Positions 6,041 to 36,660 of a DNA stretch of 64,000 nucleotides are shown here, piece by piece; the stretch's first letter is position 1; each line of letters opens with the position of its first letter. The notes below the pieces were generated by a model. The model did not search any database and had not been told where the DNA came from. It was given only the letters and a program-made list of their open reading frames with translations. A program made the translations under genes and the position numbers. This stretch comes from Clostridia bacterium (GTDB lineage: Bacteria; Bacillota; Clostridia; Oscillospirales; CAG-272), in contig JAFTLQ010000016.1 of NCBI GenBank assembly GCA_017455905.1, positions 268 to 64,267 on the forward strand, in the 5' to 3' direction.

Positions 6041-9000
6041 ATGAAAAGAACGATGTTTCAGAGAGTACTTTGCCTTGTGCTTTCTGTAACAGTGCTGCTT
6101 GGCATGTTTGGTATTTCCACATCAGCAGCCGGAATGAAGGACGTAGACGTTCAGGCTTCTCTTGCGGAAATGGATGCGTTTTTGAATGCGTCATCCTACG
6201 CCGAATATTATGCGAAGTATCACCCGACCGACGATCCCGATCAGTACATACCGGTGGGAGCCGATGCGATCCACGTATCCATCAAGGACTTCCAGAGCGG
6301 CAGTGCTGCGCAGCTCGTGAAAGACAACGATGCCTGCCAGTCGTCGTACTACGAGAGTGCAGGGGACTGGGAAAGCTTCGGTGATTTCAACACCGTTGGC
6401 GCCGAGGCCGTCTATCTTCCTGCGACCGATGCCAGCGGCAACGTAGGCAAGGCCACATGGGAATTCACCGTAATGACCGCCGGCCTTTACTACATTCAGA
6501 TCGAGTTCTTCGACTGCAACACGGGCGAGAGCTCCATCAGCTCGATCGAGCGCAAGCTGCTTATTGACGACAACGTGCCCTTTACCGAGGCGAGCTACAT
6601 CGACCTTTGGAAAAACTGGGAATACAACAACACGAAGGTGTATACGCTGGATGCGTATGAGACCTACTACGAGCAGACCTATGAGAAGGCACTTCCCGAG
6701 CTTGCCGACGGCTTCTCGTACGATCTCATCGACCGCAAGGAGAACGGCGCTTACATCCGTCATTACGTATACGAGGAGAACGGTGTCCGTATGGTGAAGG
6801 CCACGGTGCTTTCGCAGGATATCAACGGCAACTCCATGTCGCCCGACGCGGTGCAGGCACCGAAGTGGAATACCTACACCTGCAACGACTCGACCGGCTA
6901 CACGCAGGGTAACTTCCAGTTCTTCTTCTCCGCATCCTCTGCGGAGGGTGAAAAGCACACCATCACGCTGGAGGCTGAGCGCGAGCCTGTGATCGTCAAG
7001 TCCATTACGCTGATCCCCGTCGGAAGCGACGACGTGACGACCAAGAGCTACGCCGAGATCAAGGCAGAGTATGAAAGCCTTGGCTATCAGCCGGCCGCCG
7101 AGGGAACGATGACCATCATTCAGGCCGAGTTCCCGGATCTCGTTTCGGACGCATCGGTTTCCGCAACGAACGACAACTCCTCGAGCGCTACGTATCCCAC
7201 GACCGCTAAGGCGCAGCTGTACAACGTTATCGGTGAAAACAGCTACAGCTCGGTCGGTCAATGGGCGGCGTACACCTTTACCGTCAGCGAGGACGGTCTT
7301 TACAAGTTCGGCATGCGCTACCTGCAGAACGCCTTGCAGGGTATGTTCGTCTGCCGTGCGATCAAGCTCAGCGGCGGCTCGTACGGATTAGCCGACGGAA
7401 CGCCGACGCTTCCGTTCAACGAGGCAAATAACGCACGCTTCAATTACAGCGACGAGTGGCAGTCCTCCTTCGTCGGTGATGCAAACGAAGTGTTTGAATT
7501 CTATTTCGAGGCAGGCGTGGAATACACGCTGTACCTTGAATGCTCGCTCGGATCGCTTCAGTCGCTGCTGGCATCCGCAGAGCTCGCCCTTGAGAATATC
7601 AACGCGGCGTACCTGCGTATCCTTCAGCTGACCGGTGCCGACCCCGACGAATATAAGAACTATCAGTTCCCCGAGGTCATGCCCGACGTGCTGATCACGC
7701 TTCTTGAAGAGGGTATTCGTCTGTGCGGCATCGCGGATGAGTTCGTGGAGCTGGCCGAGGGCGATATCGGCTCGCATATTGCTATCCTTGACAACGTTGC
7801 GCGTCTGCTGGACCGTATCGGAAGCGACAACGGTTACGAGATCGCCCGTAACCTGGCGAACCTCAAGGCAAACCTTGGTACGCTCGGTACGTGGATCAAC
7901 GATTCCAAGCGCAGCTCGATGACGGTGGATGCGATCTACGTCGTACCTGCCGATGCGAACGAGAAAGTTCTTCCTCGTGCCAAGGCCGGCTTCTTCGCCA
8001 ACCTTTGGTTTGAGGTCAAGGCCTTCTTCTGCTCCTTCTTTACCGATTACGAGGCCATGGGTCTTACCGTGGTGCCCGACGAGGATGCAACGACCATCGA
8101 CGTATGGCTTGCCACCGGTCGTGACCAGTCCAAGATCTGGCGTAGCATGATCGATATTGAGGGTGAGGGCGGCTTTACCAGCAATACCGGCACAGCCGTT
8201 ACGCTGAAGCTGGTTACGGCAGGAACGCTTCTGCCGTCCATTCTGGCAGGCAAAGGCCCTGACGTCTATCTCGGCCTCGGTGCTGCCGACGTTATCAACT
8301 ACGCGATCCGTGACGCGGTTCTCGGTATCAGCGGTAACGATCCGCGCCTGGCAGAGCCGAACGCCAAGGGCGTGGTTGAGAACGAGTATTTCACTTCCTA
8401 TTATTATACGTACTATAACGAGCAGACCGGCGAGTTTGAGCGCACGACGACGCCCGATCCCAGCCGTACGGCCACCTACGTATCCAAGCCCTTCAGCGAG
8501 GTAGCCTCGGTCTACAACCCCGACACTGGTGAAGGCAACTTTGTCGCGGCTGCTTTGGACACCGTAACGCTGCGTAACGTTTCGTACGGCTTACCGATGA
8601 CGATGTCCTTCGCTATGATGTTCTACCGTGCCGACGTCCTCGCCGAGCTGGATTCCGAGGTTCCCGAGACGTGGTCGGATCTTCTGTCGCTCCTTCCCGA
8701 GCTGCAGGCGAATAACATGTCTGTCGGTATTACCTACGCGTCCGCTATCAACTTCCTCCTTTACCAGATGGGAGGCAACATGTGGCGTTACACCGATGAC
8801 CCCACGGGCGATTATGCCGGTGCGCGCATCGGTCTGGATACCAACACCGCCTACGAGGCCTTTGACTTCGTATGCAAGCTCTATACCGATTATTCCTTCC
8901 CTGTAACCTTTGACGCAGCCAACCGTTTCAGAACCGGTGAAATGCCGATCCTTGTCGGTGACTACGCCACGATATATAACCAGCTGATTGTCTTTGCTAC

Positions 9001-32811: not shown

Positions 32812-32926
32812 CCCCGACGATCGGCTCGTTTGCCGGAAACATGCACAAAAGCAAGCGCCCTTTTCTTGAAAAAGGAACGGTTTTTTTGTGCCCTTTGCCG
32901 AAAAAAAGCAAGTTGCACAAAAACCG

Positions 32927-32955
32927 TTGACGAAAGACAAAATAAATGCTAAAAT
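32927..32955 (+). promoter_or_regulatory. putative sigma-A promoter of the lipoprotein gene
   Basis: TTGACG, 17 nt, TAAAAT. Confidence 0.45.
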
Positions 32956-33016
32956 AAATAAAAATGTACCGATTGCCGTAGGTACGTTGAATTTGAACGG
33001 CAAGAAAGACGTTTCT

Positions 33017-34603
33017 ATGAGAAAGATCGTAAGCCTGTTGCTTTGTATGCTTCTTATGGCTGTGCTGTGCGTCTCGCTGACTGCCTGCCAGACATGTGAG
33101 CACGAATATCCCGAGGAGGCGACGCGGATCGCCGAGCCGACCTGTACGGAGGACGGTGCCTACTATTATGCATGTACGCTTTGCGGGGAAGAAAAGAAGG
33201 TAGCGCCCGAGGCGACCGATACCGCTATGCTGGCGAAGGGACACACGAGTGACGCCGGCACGATGACCACGCAGGTTTCCTGCACGACCGATGGCGTGAT
33301 GGTATATACGTGTACCGTTTGCGACGCAACGATCGATACCGTGACGGTCAAGACCCCCGGCCATATATATGACGAGCTTGATGTTCAAACGAACGGAAGC
33401 GAGCACTGGTACGAATGTGAGGTGTGTGAGACGGTGCTCGAGAAGGGCACGTGCGAATACGTTCTTATGGCGTACAGCAAGACCGAGCACACGACGGCCT
33501 GTAAGGTCTGCTATTATGAAAAGGCAAATGCCCGTGTAGCGCACGATATGGACGATGGCGTGCTCACGGCGCAAGCGACCTGCTATCAGAACGGCTACAA
33601 GACGTATACCTGTGCGGATTGCGGATATACCGAGCGCGAAGCGCTGCCCCTGGTGGACCATTCGTATGATGAGACGGTATATACATATTCCGTCAGCAAT
33701 CACTGGATTGCCTGTGTATATTGTAAGAGGGTGAAGGAGGGTACGACGACCCCGCATACCTTTGGTGAGCCTGTCGTTACCGAGCCGACGGCGACCTCTT
33801 GCTTACCCGGCACGTCGGTTTCGACGTGTACCGCCTGCGGCAACATAAAAACGGAGTACATTGCTTCGAGCGCACCGCACACGATGACGACGACGCTGAA
33901 TGCGGACGAAACGCTTACCCGCGCCTGCACGTCCTGCGAGACCTCTTGGACGTCGGCCGTGCTGATGTATGGCGACGGCACGAGCTCGGCAGGTCTCGGC
34001 GGTAATGCGGGAACCGGCTCGGGATGGGGCTCCGGCGGCCTTGGCCCGGACGTCATCGACGGCTGCTACGTATATGAAAAGAACAACGCCGTCAACCCGT
34101 GCCAGGCACAGTTTTATTTGACGTCGACGGATTTCGATCCATCGATGCCGCTTCCCGAGGAATGGACGGGCGCTCTCCTTTCCTTCAAGGTCAAGCAGGG
34201 TGCTATGTACATGAGCGACTGGGGCTTCTATATTTGCAATTCGACCGGAGCATGGAGTGACAACAGCAAGGGCTTTGCACTGTGCAGAACGACCAATAGC
34301 GGCAAGAACAAGAAGATCATCGATATCGGAGGACGTGCGATCGGCGATATCTCGCTCGGAACGGACTGGGTGACGGTTGATATCGAGATCACCTTTGACC
34401 GTGAAAACGATAAGCTGCTCCTTGTGTACTACGTGAACGGTGTATACGTCAGCAAAGCTTCGACCTCCAACCTGCTGCTCAATGATATGTTTAACGGCAT
34501 TTATTTCTCGTCGCCCGGTACAGCCGATAATACGTATAACACGAAGGACCCCAACGTGCAGCCATCCATTTATTTTGACGATATTATTCTTGCGGTGTAT
34601 TAA
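33017..34603 (+). CDS. lipoprotein with about 8 CxxC-type Cys-rich repeats and a C-terminal LamG/ConA-like domain
   Basis: The lipobox is LCVSLTAC. Repeated modules include EPTCTEDGAYYYACTLCGEEK, VSCTTDGVMVYTCTVCDATI, HWYECEVCE, ATCYQNGYKTYTCADCGYTE, HWIACVYCK and CLPGTSVSTCTACGN. The roughly 220-aa tail ends in IYFDDIILAVY. Confidence 0.65.
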   Translation: MRKIVSLLLCMLLMAVLCVSLTACQTCEHEYPEEATRIAEPTCTEDGAYYYACTLCGEEKKVAPEATDTAMLAKGHTSDAGTMTTQVSCTTDGVMVYTCTVCDATIDTVTVKTPGHIYDELDVQTNGSEHWYECEVCETVLEKGTCEYVLMAYSKTEHTTACKVCYYEKANARVAHDMDDGVLTAQATCYQNGYKTYTCADCGYTEREALPLVDHSYDETVYTYSVSNHWIACVYCKRVKEGTTTPHTFGEPVVTEPTATSCLPGTSVSTCTACGNIKTEYIASSAPHTMTTTLNADETLTRACTSCETSWTSAVLMYGDGTSSAGLGGNAGTGSGWGSGGLGPDVIDGCYVYEKNNAVNPCQAQFYLTSTDFDPSMPLPEEWTGALLSFKVKQGAMYMSDWGFYICNSTGAWSDNSKGFALCRTTNSGKNKKIIDIGGRAIGDISLGTDWVTVDIEITFDRENDKLLLVYYVNGVYVSKASTSNLLLNDMFNGIYFSSPGTADNTYNTKDPNVQPSIYFDDIILAVY

Positions 34604-34745
34604 GGATCCCGTGGATCAACCGAAAGAGGTAAGGGACGTACAAAAGGACAGTTTTTTGAAATTCAACAAAATACGCTACCTACCAACAGGAAAAAAGGAC
34701 AGAGAATGTTTAGCGTGTTATCCTTAACGGAGAACACGCTAAAAC

Positions 34746-34906
34746 TAAGTTTGCCCAATGGGCAAGTGAAGTTTACTTCGTAAGTGAAGTTATCCTGCGG
34801 ATAGTGAAGTTTTGCCTATGGCAAAGTGGGCAAACTTAACTTCACTTGTGCGTAGCACAAACTTCACTGCATAGCAACTTCACTTTCGCGTCAGCGGAAA
34901 CTTCAC
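34746..34906. repeat. array of 7 mini-hairpins punctuated by GTGAAGT (x3, forward) then ACTTCAC (x4, reverse)
   Basis: GTGAAGT occurs at 34766, 34784 and 34804. ACTTCAC occurs at 34839, 34861, 34877 and 34900. Each interval is its own small palindrome, for example ttgcccaatgggcaa, ttacttcgtaa, tatcctgcggata, tttgcctatggcaaa, ttgtgcgtagcacaa and tgcatagca. Confidence 0.8.
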
Positions 34907-34909
34907 AGG

Positions 34910-34960
34910 CAGAAAAAGAGATAACATTTCGGATACGAACCGATTTGTTATCTCTTTCTG
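34910..34960 (+). terminator. long hairpin, terminator-like
   Basis: cagaaaaagagataaca ... tgttatctctttctg, about 15 bp with a 2-nt bulge and an inner tcgg/ccga pairing. The trailing U-tract is weak. Confidence 0.45.
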
Positions 34961-35190
34961 TCGTTATAAGGGTTTGGGTTTAGCCCATAATGCGATTGAC
35001 TAGTCAAATGCGATGCTTGCACTTTTGTCAATGTGTAAATTCTCCGCTAAGAACATCACCCCTTTCGTTCTCTGTCCTCTTTTCTTTAACAAGCACCGAC
35101 TTCATGAAAGACATCAAGGTTGCATACGCGTCCTCTCACCCGCTGTCCTTTCCGTTTTCCGACATTTTTCGGAAAATCTCGGGCGTTGCC

Positions 35191-35219
35191 TTGACAAATA
35201 TTTTAAATCATGGTATACT
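35191..35219 (+). promoter_or_regulatory. near-consensus sigma-A promoter of miaB
   Basis: TTGACA, 17 nt, TATACT, preceded by TGG (an extended -10), 56 nt upstream of the miaB ATG. Confidence 0.6.
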
Positions 35220-35274: not shown

Positions 35275-36660
35275 ATGAATATTGACTTTTTGTCAAAGGA
35301 TATACAGGAGCATATCGCGCAGGTGCGTGCGCACATCGATGGAAGCTTTGCGCGCTATTTTGTCATAACGCTCGGCTGTCAGCAGAATGAGGCTGACAGC
35401 GAGCGCATCCGCGGTATGGCCGCCGCCATGGGCTATCAGCCGGCCGAGAGGGCAGAGGAGGCGTCGCTGATCGTCGTCAACACCTGTGCCGTCCGAGAGC
35501 ACGCAGAGCTGAAGGCACTGTCCCTTTTGGGACGCTTCAAGCACGTAAAAGCGGCCGTCCCCGAAACGGTGATCGCCCTGTGTGGCTGCATGGCGGCCGA
35601 GCCGGGCACCGTGCGCACCATTAAGGAAAAATTCCCGTACGTGTCGTTTGCGCTGGAGCCGAATATGCTGCATCGCTTTCCCGAGCTGGTCCACCGTGCG
35701 CTGACCGAGCGCCGCCGTACGTTTCTGCTCGGTGAGGATATGGGCGATATCGCCGAGGGCATTCCGCCCGTACGCTCGACCAGCCACCGTGCGTGGGTGT
35801 CGATCATGTACGGCTGCAACAACTTCTGCTCCTATTGCATCGTTCCGTACGTCAGAGGCCGCGAGCGCAGCCGCGACGCCGCGCGTATCATGGATGAATG
35901 CCGAGAGCTGATCGCGGACGGATGTCGGGAGATCACCCTGCTTGGACAGAACGTCAATTCCTATCGAAGCGAGCTGACCTTCGCCCAGCTGCTGGAGCAG
36001 ATCGCCCGTCTTGACGGGGAATTCCGTCTGCGCTTTATGACCAGCCATCCGAAGGACGTTTCCGAGGAGCTCATCGCCGTCATGGCACGCTACCCCGACA
36101 AGATCGCCCCCGCCTTTCACCTGCCCCTGCAATCGGGCAGCGACCGCATACTCAAGGAGATGAACCGTACGTATACGAGGGAGCGATACCTGTCGATCGT
36201 CGAGGCTCTGCGGCGTGCGATCCCCGATATCGCGATAACGACCGATATCATCGTCGGCTTCCCCGGCGAGAGCGACGAGGACTTTGAGGATACCTACCGC
36301 ACGGTCGAGGCCGTTGGGTACGACAGCCTGTTTTCCTTTATCTATTCTCCCCGCGAGGGAACGAAGGCCGCCAAGCTTGCGCAAACGACCGACGAGGCGA
36401 CGATCAAGGTGCGTATGGAGCGCCTGATCGCGCTGGCACAACGCAGCTCGTACGAAAAGAACCAAGCCTACGTCGGGCGCCGTGTGCGTGTTCTGTGCGA
36501 CGGTCCTGCACGCGAGGGCGAGGAGGCCTATATCGGACGCACCGATAGCGGTAAGCTCGTGCGGTTCCAATCGGCTGGCGATCCGACGGGCTGCTTCGTA
36601 TCCGTTACGATCGATAAAGCAACGCCCTTCGATCTGTTCGGCGTTGCCGACGATACTTAA
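35275..36660 (+). CDS. miaB: tRNA-2-methylthio-N6-dimethylallyladenosine synthase
   Basis: N-terminal UPF0004 cysteines (LGCQQNE, NTCAVRE, GCMA), radical-SAM motif CNNFCSYC and a TRAM-like C-terminus. The ORF-track start at 34990 is an over-extension. Confidence 0.9.
   Translation: MNIDFLSKDIQEHIAQVRAHIDGSFARYFVITLGCQQNEADSERIRGMAAAMGYQPAERAEEASLIVVNTCAVREHAELKALSLLGRFKHVKAAVPETVIALCGCMAAEPGTVRTIKEKFPYVSFALEPNMLHRFPELVHRALTERRRTFLLGEDMGDIAEGIPPVRSTSHRAWVSIMYGCNNFCSYCIVPYVRGRERSRDAARIMDECRELIADGCREITLLGQNVNSYRSELTFAQLLEQIARLDGEFRLRFMTSHPKDVSEELIAVMARYPDKIAPAFHLPLQSGSDRILKEMNRTYTRERYLSIVEALRRAIPDIAITTDIIVGFPGESDEDFEDTYRTVEAVGYDSLFSFIYSPREGTKAAKLAQTTDEATIKVRMERLIALAQRSSYEKNQAYVGRRVRVLCDGPAREGEEAYIGRTDSGKLVRFQSAGDPTGCFVSVTIDKATPFDLFGVADDT

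What the first reader, a model, noticed from the sequence alone, without database searches (positions are those of the whole stretch)
34710..34960. Mirror-organised array of seven mini-hairpins separated by an invariant 7-mer (GTGAAGT x3 then ACTTCAC x4)
The array lies between the lipoprotein gene and miaB. An invariant heptamer occurs three times in forward orientation (34766, 34784, 34804) and four times in reverse orientation (34839, 34861, 34877, 34900). Every 9-17-nt spacer is itself a different perfect or near-perfect palindrome with a 3-4-nt loop: ttgccc-aa-tgggcaa, ttac-ttc-gtaa, tatcc-tgc-ggata, tttgcc-tat-ggcaaa, ttgtgc-gta-gcacaa, tgc-ata-gca and tttcgc-gtca-gcggaaa. In addition, taagtttgccca (34747) is complementary to tgggcaaactta (34827). 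That long-range pairing competes with the first local hairpin. The array is flanked by a 10-bp hairpin (34710-34742) and a 15-bp hairpin (34910-34960). So the punctuation is conserved, the stems are variable but always self-complementary, and the polarity switches in the middle. This pattern fits none of CRISPR, REP/BIME, iterons or a riboswitch that I know. It could be a protein-binding hairpin array, a recombination or ssDNA-processing site, or a multi-stem-loop RNA.
Basis: seen in the sequence. Interest (0 to 1): 0.6.

Follow-up and report, generated by a model that had tools for sequence, protein, structure and literature searches.

The report
Orphan Gut-1-type heptad-hairpin array
The mirrored mini-hairpin array is real, but it is one gene-less copy of a widespread gut-Clostridia repeat, half of which Rfam already lists as the unexplained "Gut-1 RNA"; here it rides on a 357-base mobile element lodged in a terminator hairpin loop, and its complete relatives sit directly in front of a small ring-forming protein gene.

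Summary
Seven of the window's ten GTGAAGT/ACTTCAC heptamers lie within 141 nt, and each spacer is a small palindrome.

It is not a new pattern class. Positions 34742-34815 match Rfam Gut-1 (RF01706) at 49.5 bits against a cut-off of 50. The same genome holds 33 matches, 7 above the cut-off. This scan has reported the family before on other DNA.

- **Where it sits.** The array (34743-34906) is one module of a ~357-nt composite repeat (34710-35066). That repeat lies inside the loop of the terminator hairpin after the lipoprotein gene, and an uninterrupted copy of that hairpin exists elsewhere in the genome.
- **Link to a gene.** Complete arrays lie directly upstream of PF05635 (IVP/Avd-like) genes. 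Each protein clade has its own heptamer. AGTGAAGTT is kept across homologues of 62-95% identity while the hairpins change.
- **DNA or RNA.** Stems are almost purely Watson-Crick: 0.5% G.T, against 7.5% in this genome's tRNAs. Loops are mostly 3 nt. Several arrays lie upstream of the IVP promoter. This favours folded DNA over RNA.

Best reading: an orphan satellite copy of the IVP gene's cis-element, with the heptamers as protein-recognition sites. Binding is not shown, and most array-bearing genomes lack an assembled matching IVP gene. No role specific to miaB is indicated.

The parts
34642..34709 (.). Outer repeat module. It ends in the left half of a terminator-type hairpin: an A-run, then the stem AGGACAGAGAATG at 34696-34708.
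   Evidence: An uninterrupted paralogue lies at G000:C24:17597-17680. The stem pairs with 35066-35078 in the MFE fold.
34710..34742 (.). Module A: the conserved 14-bp hairpin that opens the composite repeat (starts TTAGCGTG).
   Evidence: Marks the left boundary of homology in 9 aligned copies. Compensatory variants occur in other copies.
34743..34906 (.). Module B: the two-armed heptad-hairpin array, AACTAAGTT to ACTTCAC. This is the flagged feature.
   Evidence: It also occurs as a stand-alone unit, at 95% identity in G010 (L021).
34742..34815 (+). Left arm, matched by Rfam Gut-1 (RF01706).
   Evidence: 49.5 bits against a gathering score of 50; E 6e-9 to 2e-8.
34745..34751 (+). Degenerate first heptad L0 (CTAAGTT). 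In rlmD-linked copies its TAA is the rlmD stop codon.
34766..34810 (+). Forward heptads L1-L3 (34766, 34784, 34804), with hairpins 2 and 3 between them.
34746..34757 (+). 5' strand of the anchor helix (TAAGTTTGCCCA). It overlaps the 5' half of hairpin 1 (34751-34765).
   Evidence: The same logic, with different sequence, holds in other linker families.
34827..34838 (+). 3' strand of the anchor helix (TGGGCAAACTTA), lying between hairpin 4 (34811-34825) and R1.
34839..34906 (+). Reverse heptads R1-R4 (34839, 34861, 34877, 34900), with hairpins 5-7 between them.
34908..34962 (.). Module C: a terminator-like hairpin with an A-run and a T-rich tail, enclosing an inner mini-hairpin.
   Evidence: Its stems covary between copies.
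34963..35036 (.). Module D: a conserved non-coding block containing the 12-bp palindrome TTGACTAGTCAA (34996-35007).
   Evidence: Modules C-E also occur without the array.
35037..35066 (.). Module E: the right end of the composite repeat. Its reverse complement resembles the start of module A, giving an imperfect terminal inverted repeat.
   Evidence: Right boundary of homology.
35066..35085 (.). Right half of the split terminator hairpin (CGTTCTCTGTCCT) plus a T-run.
32888..34603 (+). The split hairpin is probably its terminator.
35191..35219 (+). Promoter-like site for miaB (TTGACA-17-TATACT preceded by TG), downstream of the repeat.
35275..36660 (+). miaB (UPF0004, radical SAM and TRAM domains). 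The likely start is the ATG at 35275.

Best explanation
**What it is.** The array is an orphan (gene-less) copy of the two-armed heptad-hairpin element whose left arm Rfam calls Gut-1. In its complete form this element is the conserved cis-partner of a small IVP/Avd-like four-helix-bundle gene (PF05635).

**How it got here.** It is cargo of a ~357-nt non-coding composite repeat that landed in the loop of the terminator hairpin downstream of the lipoprotein gene.

**How it probably works.**
- The sequence-free mini-hairpins fold out of the way.
- That leaves the invariant heptads, four in each orientation counting the degenerate L0, as a compact set of sites for a sequence-specific reader.
- The most likely reader is the IVP pentamer of the matching clade, which this genome encodes twice on contig C36.
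- In a single strand, left and right heptads can also pair, giving a rod of heptad duplexes with hairpins at the junctions.
- The pairing statistics suggest that the folded form under selection is DNA, with both strands folding (a cruciform, or single strands exposed in turn), rather than an RNA.

**Shown and inferred.** Shown: family membership, the insertion site, and linkage and co-variation with IVP genes. Inferred: IVP binding, DNA rather than RNA, and any downstream effect. At this locus I expect no role specific to miaB.
For: **Family membership and copy number.**
- Gut-1 match.
- 33 matches in the same genome, many in convergent pairs or at contig ends.
- 14 two-armed arrays with six different linkers in 1.25 Mb.

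**Insertion.**
- The homology boundaries are 34710 and 35066.
- The non-homologous flanks of each copy are complementary to each other. The longest exact complement has a median of 10 nt (range 6-16), against a median of 5.5 and a maximum of 9 for mismatched flank pairs.
- An uninterrupted paralogous hairpin lies at C24.
- miaB upstream regions in four relatives are short and hold no array.

**Link to IVP genes.**
- All three intact PF05635 genes of this genome have an array directly upstream.
- In the genus, 48 of about 70 IVP upstream regions pass a strict array rule, against 37 of 3000 random windows.
- Every supported IVP clade has its own heptamer.
- 66 of 75 relatives of IVP1 at 62-95% identity keep AGTGAAGTT, mostly in the same 3(+L0)+4 layout, while the hairpin sequences vary between arrays.
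- Some IVP genes have contiguous heptads with no hairpins between them.
- IVP1 matches PDB 2rld, an entry with five chains.

**DNA rather than RNA.**
- 863 Watson-Crick pairs against 4 G.T in 165 distinct hairpins, and 750 against 4 in 175 more. The 31 tRNAs of this genome have 616 against 50.
- Loops are mostly 3 nt, and each arm's loops are the reverse complement of the other's: TTC against GAA, including GCGAAGC.
- In about 25 of 61 cassettes the last heptad abuts the -35 box of the IVP promoter, so the array lies outside that mRNA.

**Energetics.** Hairpins plus heptad duplexes score -50.6 kcal/mol. Hairpins alone score -29.6.
Against: - No binding experiment exists.
- Linker and protein are neighbours, so co-inheritance could explain part of their co-variation.
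- GTGAAGT arrays occur in 27 of 61 genus genomes. A matching-clade IVP (85% identity or more) was found in only three of them, plus one pseudogene and one fragment. Array-rich or 95-97% complete genomes such as G056, G010 and G066 show none. So orphan copies do not visibly depend on it, although MAGs often lose repeat-flanked genes.
- In the AGTGAAGTT clade the array lies between rlmD and the IVP ribosome-binding site with no room for a promoter, so there it must be transcribed. An RNA role is therefore not excluded.
- A metatranscriptome holds contig pieces of the element.
- Rare deviant heptads showed no compensating change in the opposite arm. Left-right pairing thus has no within-array covariation support.
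Confidence: 0.45

Rival explanations
1. It works as a structured RNA, the original Gut-1 reading. Transcribed as a 3' UTR, a leader or a small RNA, the multi-hairpin fold binds IVP or another factor, or controls translation of the downstream IVP gene. Orphan copies would then be RNA decoys or stabilisers.
For: - Weinberg 2010 rated Gut-1 a certain RNA on the strength of covariation.
- In the rlmD-linked clade the array must be co-transcribed with IVP, and it ends 14-26 nt before the ATG, next to the ribosome-binding site.
- RNA-library contigs cover parts of it.
- It folds strongly.
Against: - G.U pairs are almost absent, at 0.5% against 7.5% in this genome's tRNAs.
- Loops are mostly triloops, and the two arms mirror each other.
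- Many arrays lie between a terminator and the IVP promoter.
- Composite copies sit in either orientation relative to neighbouring genes.
- The RNA evidence consists of contigs only. They give no strand or ends, and carry-over of DNA is not excluded.
Confidence: 0.25
2. It is purely selfish DNA: a MITE-like satellite whose hairpins serve only its own transposition, through single-stranded or hairpin-recognising enzymes supplied in trans. IVP genes would be occasional passengers or neighbours with no functional tie.
For: - It is multi-copy, breaks assemblies, and is far more similar between species (85-95%) than miaB is (about 68%).
- It lands in or next to hairpins in many loci and in both orientations.
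- One copy is flanked by a 23-nt direct duplication of the target hairpin.
- Most array-bearing genomes lack the matching IVP.
- There is a precedent: IS1272/TnSha1 inserts into terminator hairpins (PMC4923244).
Against: - No transposase partner was found. DUF772/IS1182-type genes occur in 4 of 61 genus genomes and show no end similarity.
- Y1 (IS200/RAYT) genes occur in 17 of 61 genomes. They overlap array-bearing genomes in 7, where 7.5 would be expected by chance.
- This reading does not explain why each IVP clade keeps its own invariant heptamer.
- It also does not explain the rlmD-array-IVP arrangement seen in MAGs labelled with several different families.
Confidence: 0.2
3. It is a host-serving 3'-end element: a reinforced terminator, insulator or mRNA-stabilising structure between the lipoprotein gene and miaB.
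For: It sits within a terminator hairpin, and the whole insert is predicted to fold so that the outer stem still closes. It carries a second terminator-like hairpin, module C.
Against: It is not conserved at the miaB locus in relatives. The same element occurs at unrelated loci and in both orientations. The invariant heptads are unnecessary for termination.
Confidence: 0.05

Closest known systems
Gut-1 RNA motif (Rfam RF01706; Weinberg et al. 2010, PMC2864571)
   Same: Three covarying mini-hairpins are separated by a GUGAAAU-like heptamer. It comes from a gut habitat and has no known function. The left arm aligns end to end with the model.
   Different: - The model covers only one arm. The real unit is two-armed, with a central anchor helix and about 7 hairpins.
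- The heptamer here is GTGAAGT, and other copies use quite different heptamers.
- The pairing statistics point to DNA rather than RNA.
- Complete copies precede a PF05635 gene. The paper does not mention this.
23S rRNA intervening sequences carrying an S23p/IVP ORF (Coxiella, Leptospira; PMC4990558)
   Same: The protein family is the same (PF05635, a pentameric four-helix-bundle toroid). Both are elements that replace the small loop of a hairpin with a large self-folding insert whose ends pair.
   Different: The target here is a terminator hairpin, not an rRNA helix. This copy has no ORF. Heptad-hairpin arrays have not been described for IVSs. RNase III processing was not tested.
IS1272 / TnSha1 (IS1182 family) hairpin-targeting insertion (Furi et al. 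2016, PMC4923244)
   Same: It inserts into terminator hairpins with no primary-sequence target and in both orientations.
   Different: Those elements encode a DDE transposase and delete part of the stem. Here the element is non-coding, the stem is intact, no IS1182-type partner correlates with it, and its ends show no similarity.
Heptad operator arrays of the omega repressor (pSM19035/inc18 plasmids); from my own knowledge, not checked here
   Same: There are runs of 7-bp sites in direct and inverted orientation just upstream of a promoter, read by a small oligomeric protein.
   Different: Omega heptads are contiguous double-stranded DNA. Here most heptads are separated by fold-out hairpins, the candidate reader has a different fold, and no binding has been shown.
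REP/BIME-RAYT and pneumococcal BOX-type modular repeats
   Same: They are short, structured, modular, multi-copy intergenic repeats close to terminators.
   Different: There is no conserved REP-type hairpin sequence. Y1 transposase genes do not track the arrays. The conserved part is the linker, not the stem.

Membership tests
Rfam Gut-1 (RF01706) | Covariance-model score at or above the gathering score (50 bits) | tested here: inconclusive
   This copy scores 49.5 bits (E 6e-9), which is 0.5 bit short. Seven sibling copies in the same genome score 52-61 bits.
Rfam Gut-1 (RF01706) | Three hairpins with variable, covarying stems joined by a conserved GUGAAAU-like linker | tested here: met
   The alignment runs from end to end of the model. 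Differences between copies are compensatory or lie in loops.
Rfam Gut-1 (RF01706) | Functions as a non-coding RNA | tested here: inconclusive
   Only contig-level RNA-library cover is available. Wobble and loop statistics argue for DNA.
IVP-linked heptad-hairpin cassette (defined in this scan, not published) | Array directly upstream of a PF05635 gene | tested here: not met
   There is no IVP gene at this locus: module C follows the array. The heptamer matches the IVP1/IVP2 cassettes on contig C36.
IVP-linked heptad-hairpin cassette (defined in this scan, not published) | Two complementary arms of 3-4 identical heptads, fold-out hairpins, and an anchor helix around the first arm | tested here: met
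CRISPR array | Direct repeats of about 23-55 nt, unique non-palindromic spacers, and usually cas genes | tested here: not met
   The repeats are 7 nt and occur in both orientations. The spacers are 9-16-nt palindromes.
REP/BIME with RAYT | Conserved REP hairpin sequence and a cognate Y1 (RAYT) transposase in the genome | tested here: not met
   The stems are not conserved in sequence. PF01797 was not found in this genome's assembly (56% complete) and shows no association with arrays across 61 genomes.
Iterons / replication origin | Direct repeats of about 17-22 bp with fixed phasing, next to a rep gene or DnaA boxes | tested here: inconclusive
   Heptad spacing is irregular, at 16-23 nt, and there are dozens of copies per genome. 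I did not search for a rep gene or DnaA boxes.
Hairpin-targeting IS (IS1182 family) or its MITE | Insertion into hairpins, together with terminal repeats matching an IS1182-type element in the host | tested here: inconclusive
   Insertion into a hairpin loop is met. A matching IS was not found, but MAGs often lack IS copies.

The most novel reading that the evidence does not exclude
Heptad-hairpin arrays are the specific folded-DNA ligand of the IVP/Avd-like pentamers. Each protein clade reads its own heptamer, and the hairpins bring the heptads together. If so, this protein-repeat system would give a function to three orphans at once: the Gut-1 motif, the PF05635 proteins found outside retroelements, and the loop-inserted 23S rRNA intervening sequences. 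Gene-less copies such as this one would be its satellites.
Probability: 0.3. Interest if true: 0.8.

Novelty: new member of a known kind. Interest (0 to 1): 0.55.

Why it matters
Gut-1 (described in 2010) and the PF05635 "23S rRNA intervening-sequence" proteins are both old orphans. This locus and its relatives tie them together and make the link testable with one purified 117-aa protein and one 164-nt nucleic acid.

They also show that a catalogued "RNA motif" may really be a DNA-level element. And they document a repeat that chooses its targets by hairpin shape. That matters for annotating the intergenic regions, terminators and assembly breaks of gut Clostridia genomes.

Tried and rejected
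- **Orthologous empty site.** miaB loci of four same-genus species have different upstream genes, so they give no exact empty site. The uninterrupted paralogue at C24 served instead.
- **Public reads.** All four runs were held as contigs only, so they give no strand, ends or expression level. Contigs break at the element. Joints from about 34711 to about 35069 with 5-10 other letters fit an uninterrupted outer hairpin, but their sides are short.
- **Transposase partners.** DUF772/IS1182-type and Y1/RAYT-type genes show no association and no end similarity.
- **PADLOC.** The IVP proteins gave no hit.
- **Literature.** I found nothing linking Gut-1, heptad arrays and PF05635. The HEPN survey does not mention the family.
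- **Automated anchor-helix test.** It was noisy: 12 of 55 own pairs reached 9 nt or more, against 9 of 495 controls. I rely on the sequences read directly.
- **Compensation between left and right heptads.** None of the roughly dozen true deviants was compensated. The mapping was confounded by a truncated heptad after hairpin 4.
- **Dependence of orphans on a matching IVP in trans.** Not supported by co-occurrence.

Full report
**1.

The heptamer GTGAAGT occurs three times on the + strand (34766, 34784, 34804). Its complement occurs four times (34839, 34861, 34877, 34900). Only three other hits exist in the remaining 63.9 kb, and shuffles give 5.3 hits per 64 kb. Every spacer is a palindrome of 3-6 pairs with a 3-4-nt loop. 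The long-range pair 34746-34757 / 34827-34838 is exact. Both strands fold far better than shuffled sequence, with z = -9.8 and -8.7.

**2. It belongs to a catalogued family.**

- Rfam Gut-1 (RF01706) aligns end to end with 34742-34815 at 49.5 bits, against a gathering score of 50.
- The window's own genome is a 1.25-Mb MAG, 56% complete. It holds 33 Gut-1 matches, 7 above the cut-off. Many lie in convergent pairs about 100 nt apart or at contig ends.
- A motif-free scan found 14 two-armed arrays in this genome using six different linkers: GTGAAGT, TGAAGC, ATGATG, ATGATAT, GATGTT and GTATGG. In every array the right arm carries the reverse complement of the left arm's linker.
- Weinberg et al. 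2010 list Gut-1 only as a probable non-coding RNA from human gut metagenomes, with no function.
- Earlier notes of this scan describe the same family on other genomes.

**3. The array is cargo of a composite repeat inside a terminator loop.**

BLAST against relatives and against the same genome puts the homology boundaries at 34710 and 35066. The ~357-nt unit has five modules:

| Module | Content |
|---|---|
| A | hairpin |
| B | the array |
| C | terminator-like hairpin |
| D | conserved block with a 12-bp palindrome |
| E | end that mirrors the start of A |

- Modules B and C-E also occur on their own.
- In each of nine full copies the non-homologous flanks are complementary to each other and carry an A-run on the left and a T-run on the right. 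The longest exact complement has a median of 10 nt, against 5.5 (maximum 9) for mismatched flank pairs.
- For this copy, a paralogue of the outer hairpin survives uninterrupted at C24. There the loop reads TGCTTTTCG, where our copy carries the insert.
- The MFE fold of the whole region closes the outer stem around the insert.
- The miaB upstream regions of four same-genus species are short, lack any array and have different upstream genes.
- Copies lie in either orientation relative to their neighbours.
- In rumen and gut metagenomes the element has 40-400 times the depth of its flanks.

So the array is not a regulator tied to miaB, whose own promoter lies downstream at 35191-35219.

**4. Complete arrays belong to IVP genes.**

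- This genome has four PF05635 hits. The three intact genes each have a two-armed array directly upstream. Two of these arrays use GTGAAGT and one uses GTATGG.
- The proteins match NCBIfam TIGR02436 and PDB 2rld, an entry with five chains.
- In 61 genomes of the genus, 54 carry such genes.
- Of about 70 IVP upstream regions that I fetched, 48 pass a strict array rule, against 37 of 3000 random windows. With one mismatch allowed, 65 of 74 pass.
- On a protein tree, every supported clade has its own heptamer.
- Among the 80 best relatives of IVP1 in public genomes (62-95% identity, ruminant-gut Clostridia MAGs labelled with several families), 66 of 75 evaluable loci keep AGTGAAGTT. They mostly share the 3(+L0)+4 layout, ending 14-26 nt before the ATG. 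Across 55 parsed arrays the hairpin sequences vary widely, with 32-47 distinct sequences at each position.
- Most of these cassettes start on the stop codon of an rlmD-type methyltransferase gene. The last codons of that gene form half of the preceding hairpin.
- Some IVP genes have contiguous heptads with no hairpins between them.

The constrained unit is therefore the heptad, not the hairpin sequence.

**5. DNA or RNA?**

Three results favour DNA.

- **Almost no wobble pairs.** The stems are nearly pure Watson-Crick: 863 pairs against 4 G.T in 165 distinct hairpins, and 750 against 4 in 175 more. The 31 tRNAs of this genome have 616 against 50.
- **Loop pattern.** Loops are mostly 3 nt, and the loops of the two arms are reverse complements of each other (TTC/TTT/TGC against GAA/AAA/AAC). 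They include GCGAAGC, which I recall as an unusually stable DNA mini-hairpin; that is from memory and was not checked.
- **Position.** In about 25 of 61 cassettes a TTGACA-like -35 box abuts the last heptad and is followed by TGnTATAAT, so the array lies upstream of the IVP transcript.

Against this, the AGTGAAGTT clade leaves no room for a promoter. There the array must be transcribed together with IVP.

**6. Mechanism.**

Evaluated as a single strand, hairpins plus three heptad duplexes (L3.R1, L2.R2, L1.R3) are much more stable than hairpins alone or hairpins plus the anchor helix. The values are -50.6, -29.6 and -39.1 kcal/mol with RNA parameters, and the order is the same with DNA parameters.

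This gives a rod of heptad duplexes with hairpins at the junctions and hairpin 4 at the tip. The anchor helix offers an alternative fold. However, rare deviant heptads are not compensated in the other arm. That fits a common reader better than pairing alone.

I therefore favour the heptads as recognition sites for the matching IVP, presented by fold-out hairpins. Binding is inferred, not shown.

**7. Caveats.**

- GTGAAGT arrays occur in 27 of 61 genus genomes. A matching-clade IVP was found in only three, plus a pseudogene and a fragment. Orphans may therefore spread and persist without it, or the gene may be lost from MAG assemblies.
- No transposase partner was identified.
- The nearest precedent for hairpin targeting is IS1272/TnSha1.
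- The nearest biological parallel is the 23S rRNA intervening sequences. These replace a tetraloop with a self-folding insert that may encode the same protein family.

**8. Verdict.**

This is a real, highly ordered, non-random feature and a new member of a known but unexplained family. It is an orphan copy, probably without a local function. It is valuable mainly because the family now has a testable protein partner and a DNA-level reading.

Noticed in passing
window 34642-34709 and 35066-35085; G000:C24:17597-17680: The hairpin that hosts the insert is itself part of a small repeat (AAAGGACAG... then the hairpin). A paralogue lies on contig C24, and there are hits in other genus genomes. It could be another mobile module or a small-RNA-like unit.
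   Followed up: partly
window 35074-35147; G000:C32:62713-62848: The roughly 70 nt after the terminator T-run recur on contig C32, on both sides of another terminator hairpin, as an inverted pair. This is a further dispersed intergenic module.
   Followed up: no
G000:C36:17600-21700 (L025:5650-9700): Three GTGAAGT arrays lie within 4 kb. The first follows rlmD and has lost its IVP gene. The other two carry IVP genes and a degenerate remnant of the rlmD 3' end, so the cassette was copied together with its upstream flank.
   Followed up: partly
G000:C21:40100-40800: A PF05635 pseudogene (one TAG) is preceded by contiguous ATTCATT-type heptads in direct and then inverted orientation, with no hairpin spacers.
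   Followed up: partly
L021 (G010:C64, about 8100-8700): A stand-alone array plus about 140 nt is flanked by a 23-nt direct duplication of the 3' part of the target terminator hairpin. That is unusually long for a target-site duplication and hints at a template-switch origin.
   Followed up: no
L110 (G012:C139:12142-12715): Two arrays of different linker families (CATGAATTG, then GTGAAGT) lie head to tail.
   Followed up: no
L043, L046, L051, L054, L058, L104; L025:3194-3268: Many IVP cassettes of other linker clades sit immediately after a tRNA gene and its terminator.
   Followed up: partly
L051, L052, L058: In one IVP clade the heptad orientation is inverted relative to the gene (CAACATC first), but the anchor helix still encloses the first arm.
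   Followed up: partly
window 32888-34603: The 571-aa upstream protein has no Pfam match at E 0.001 or below.
   Followed up: no
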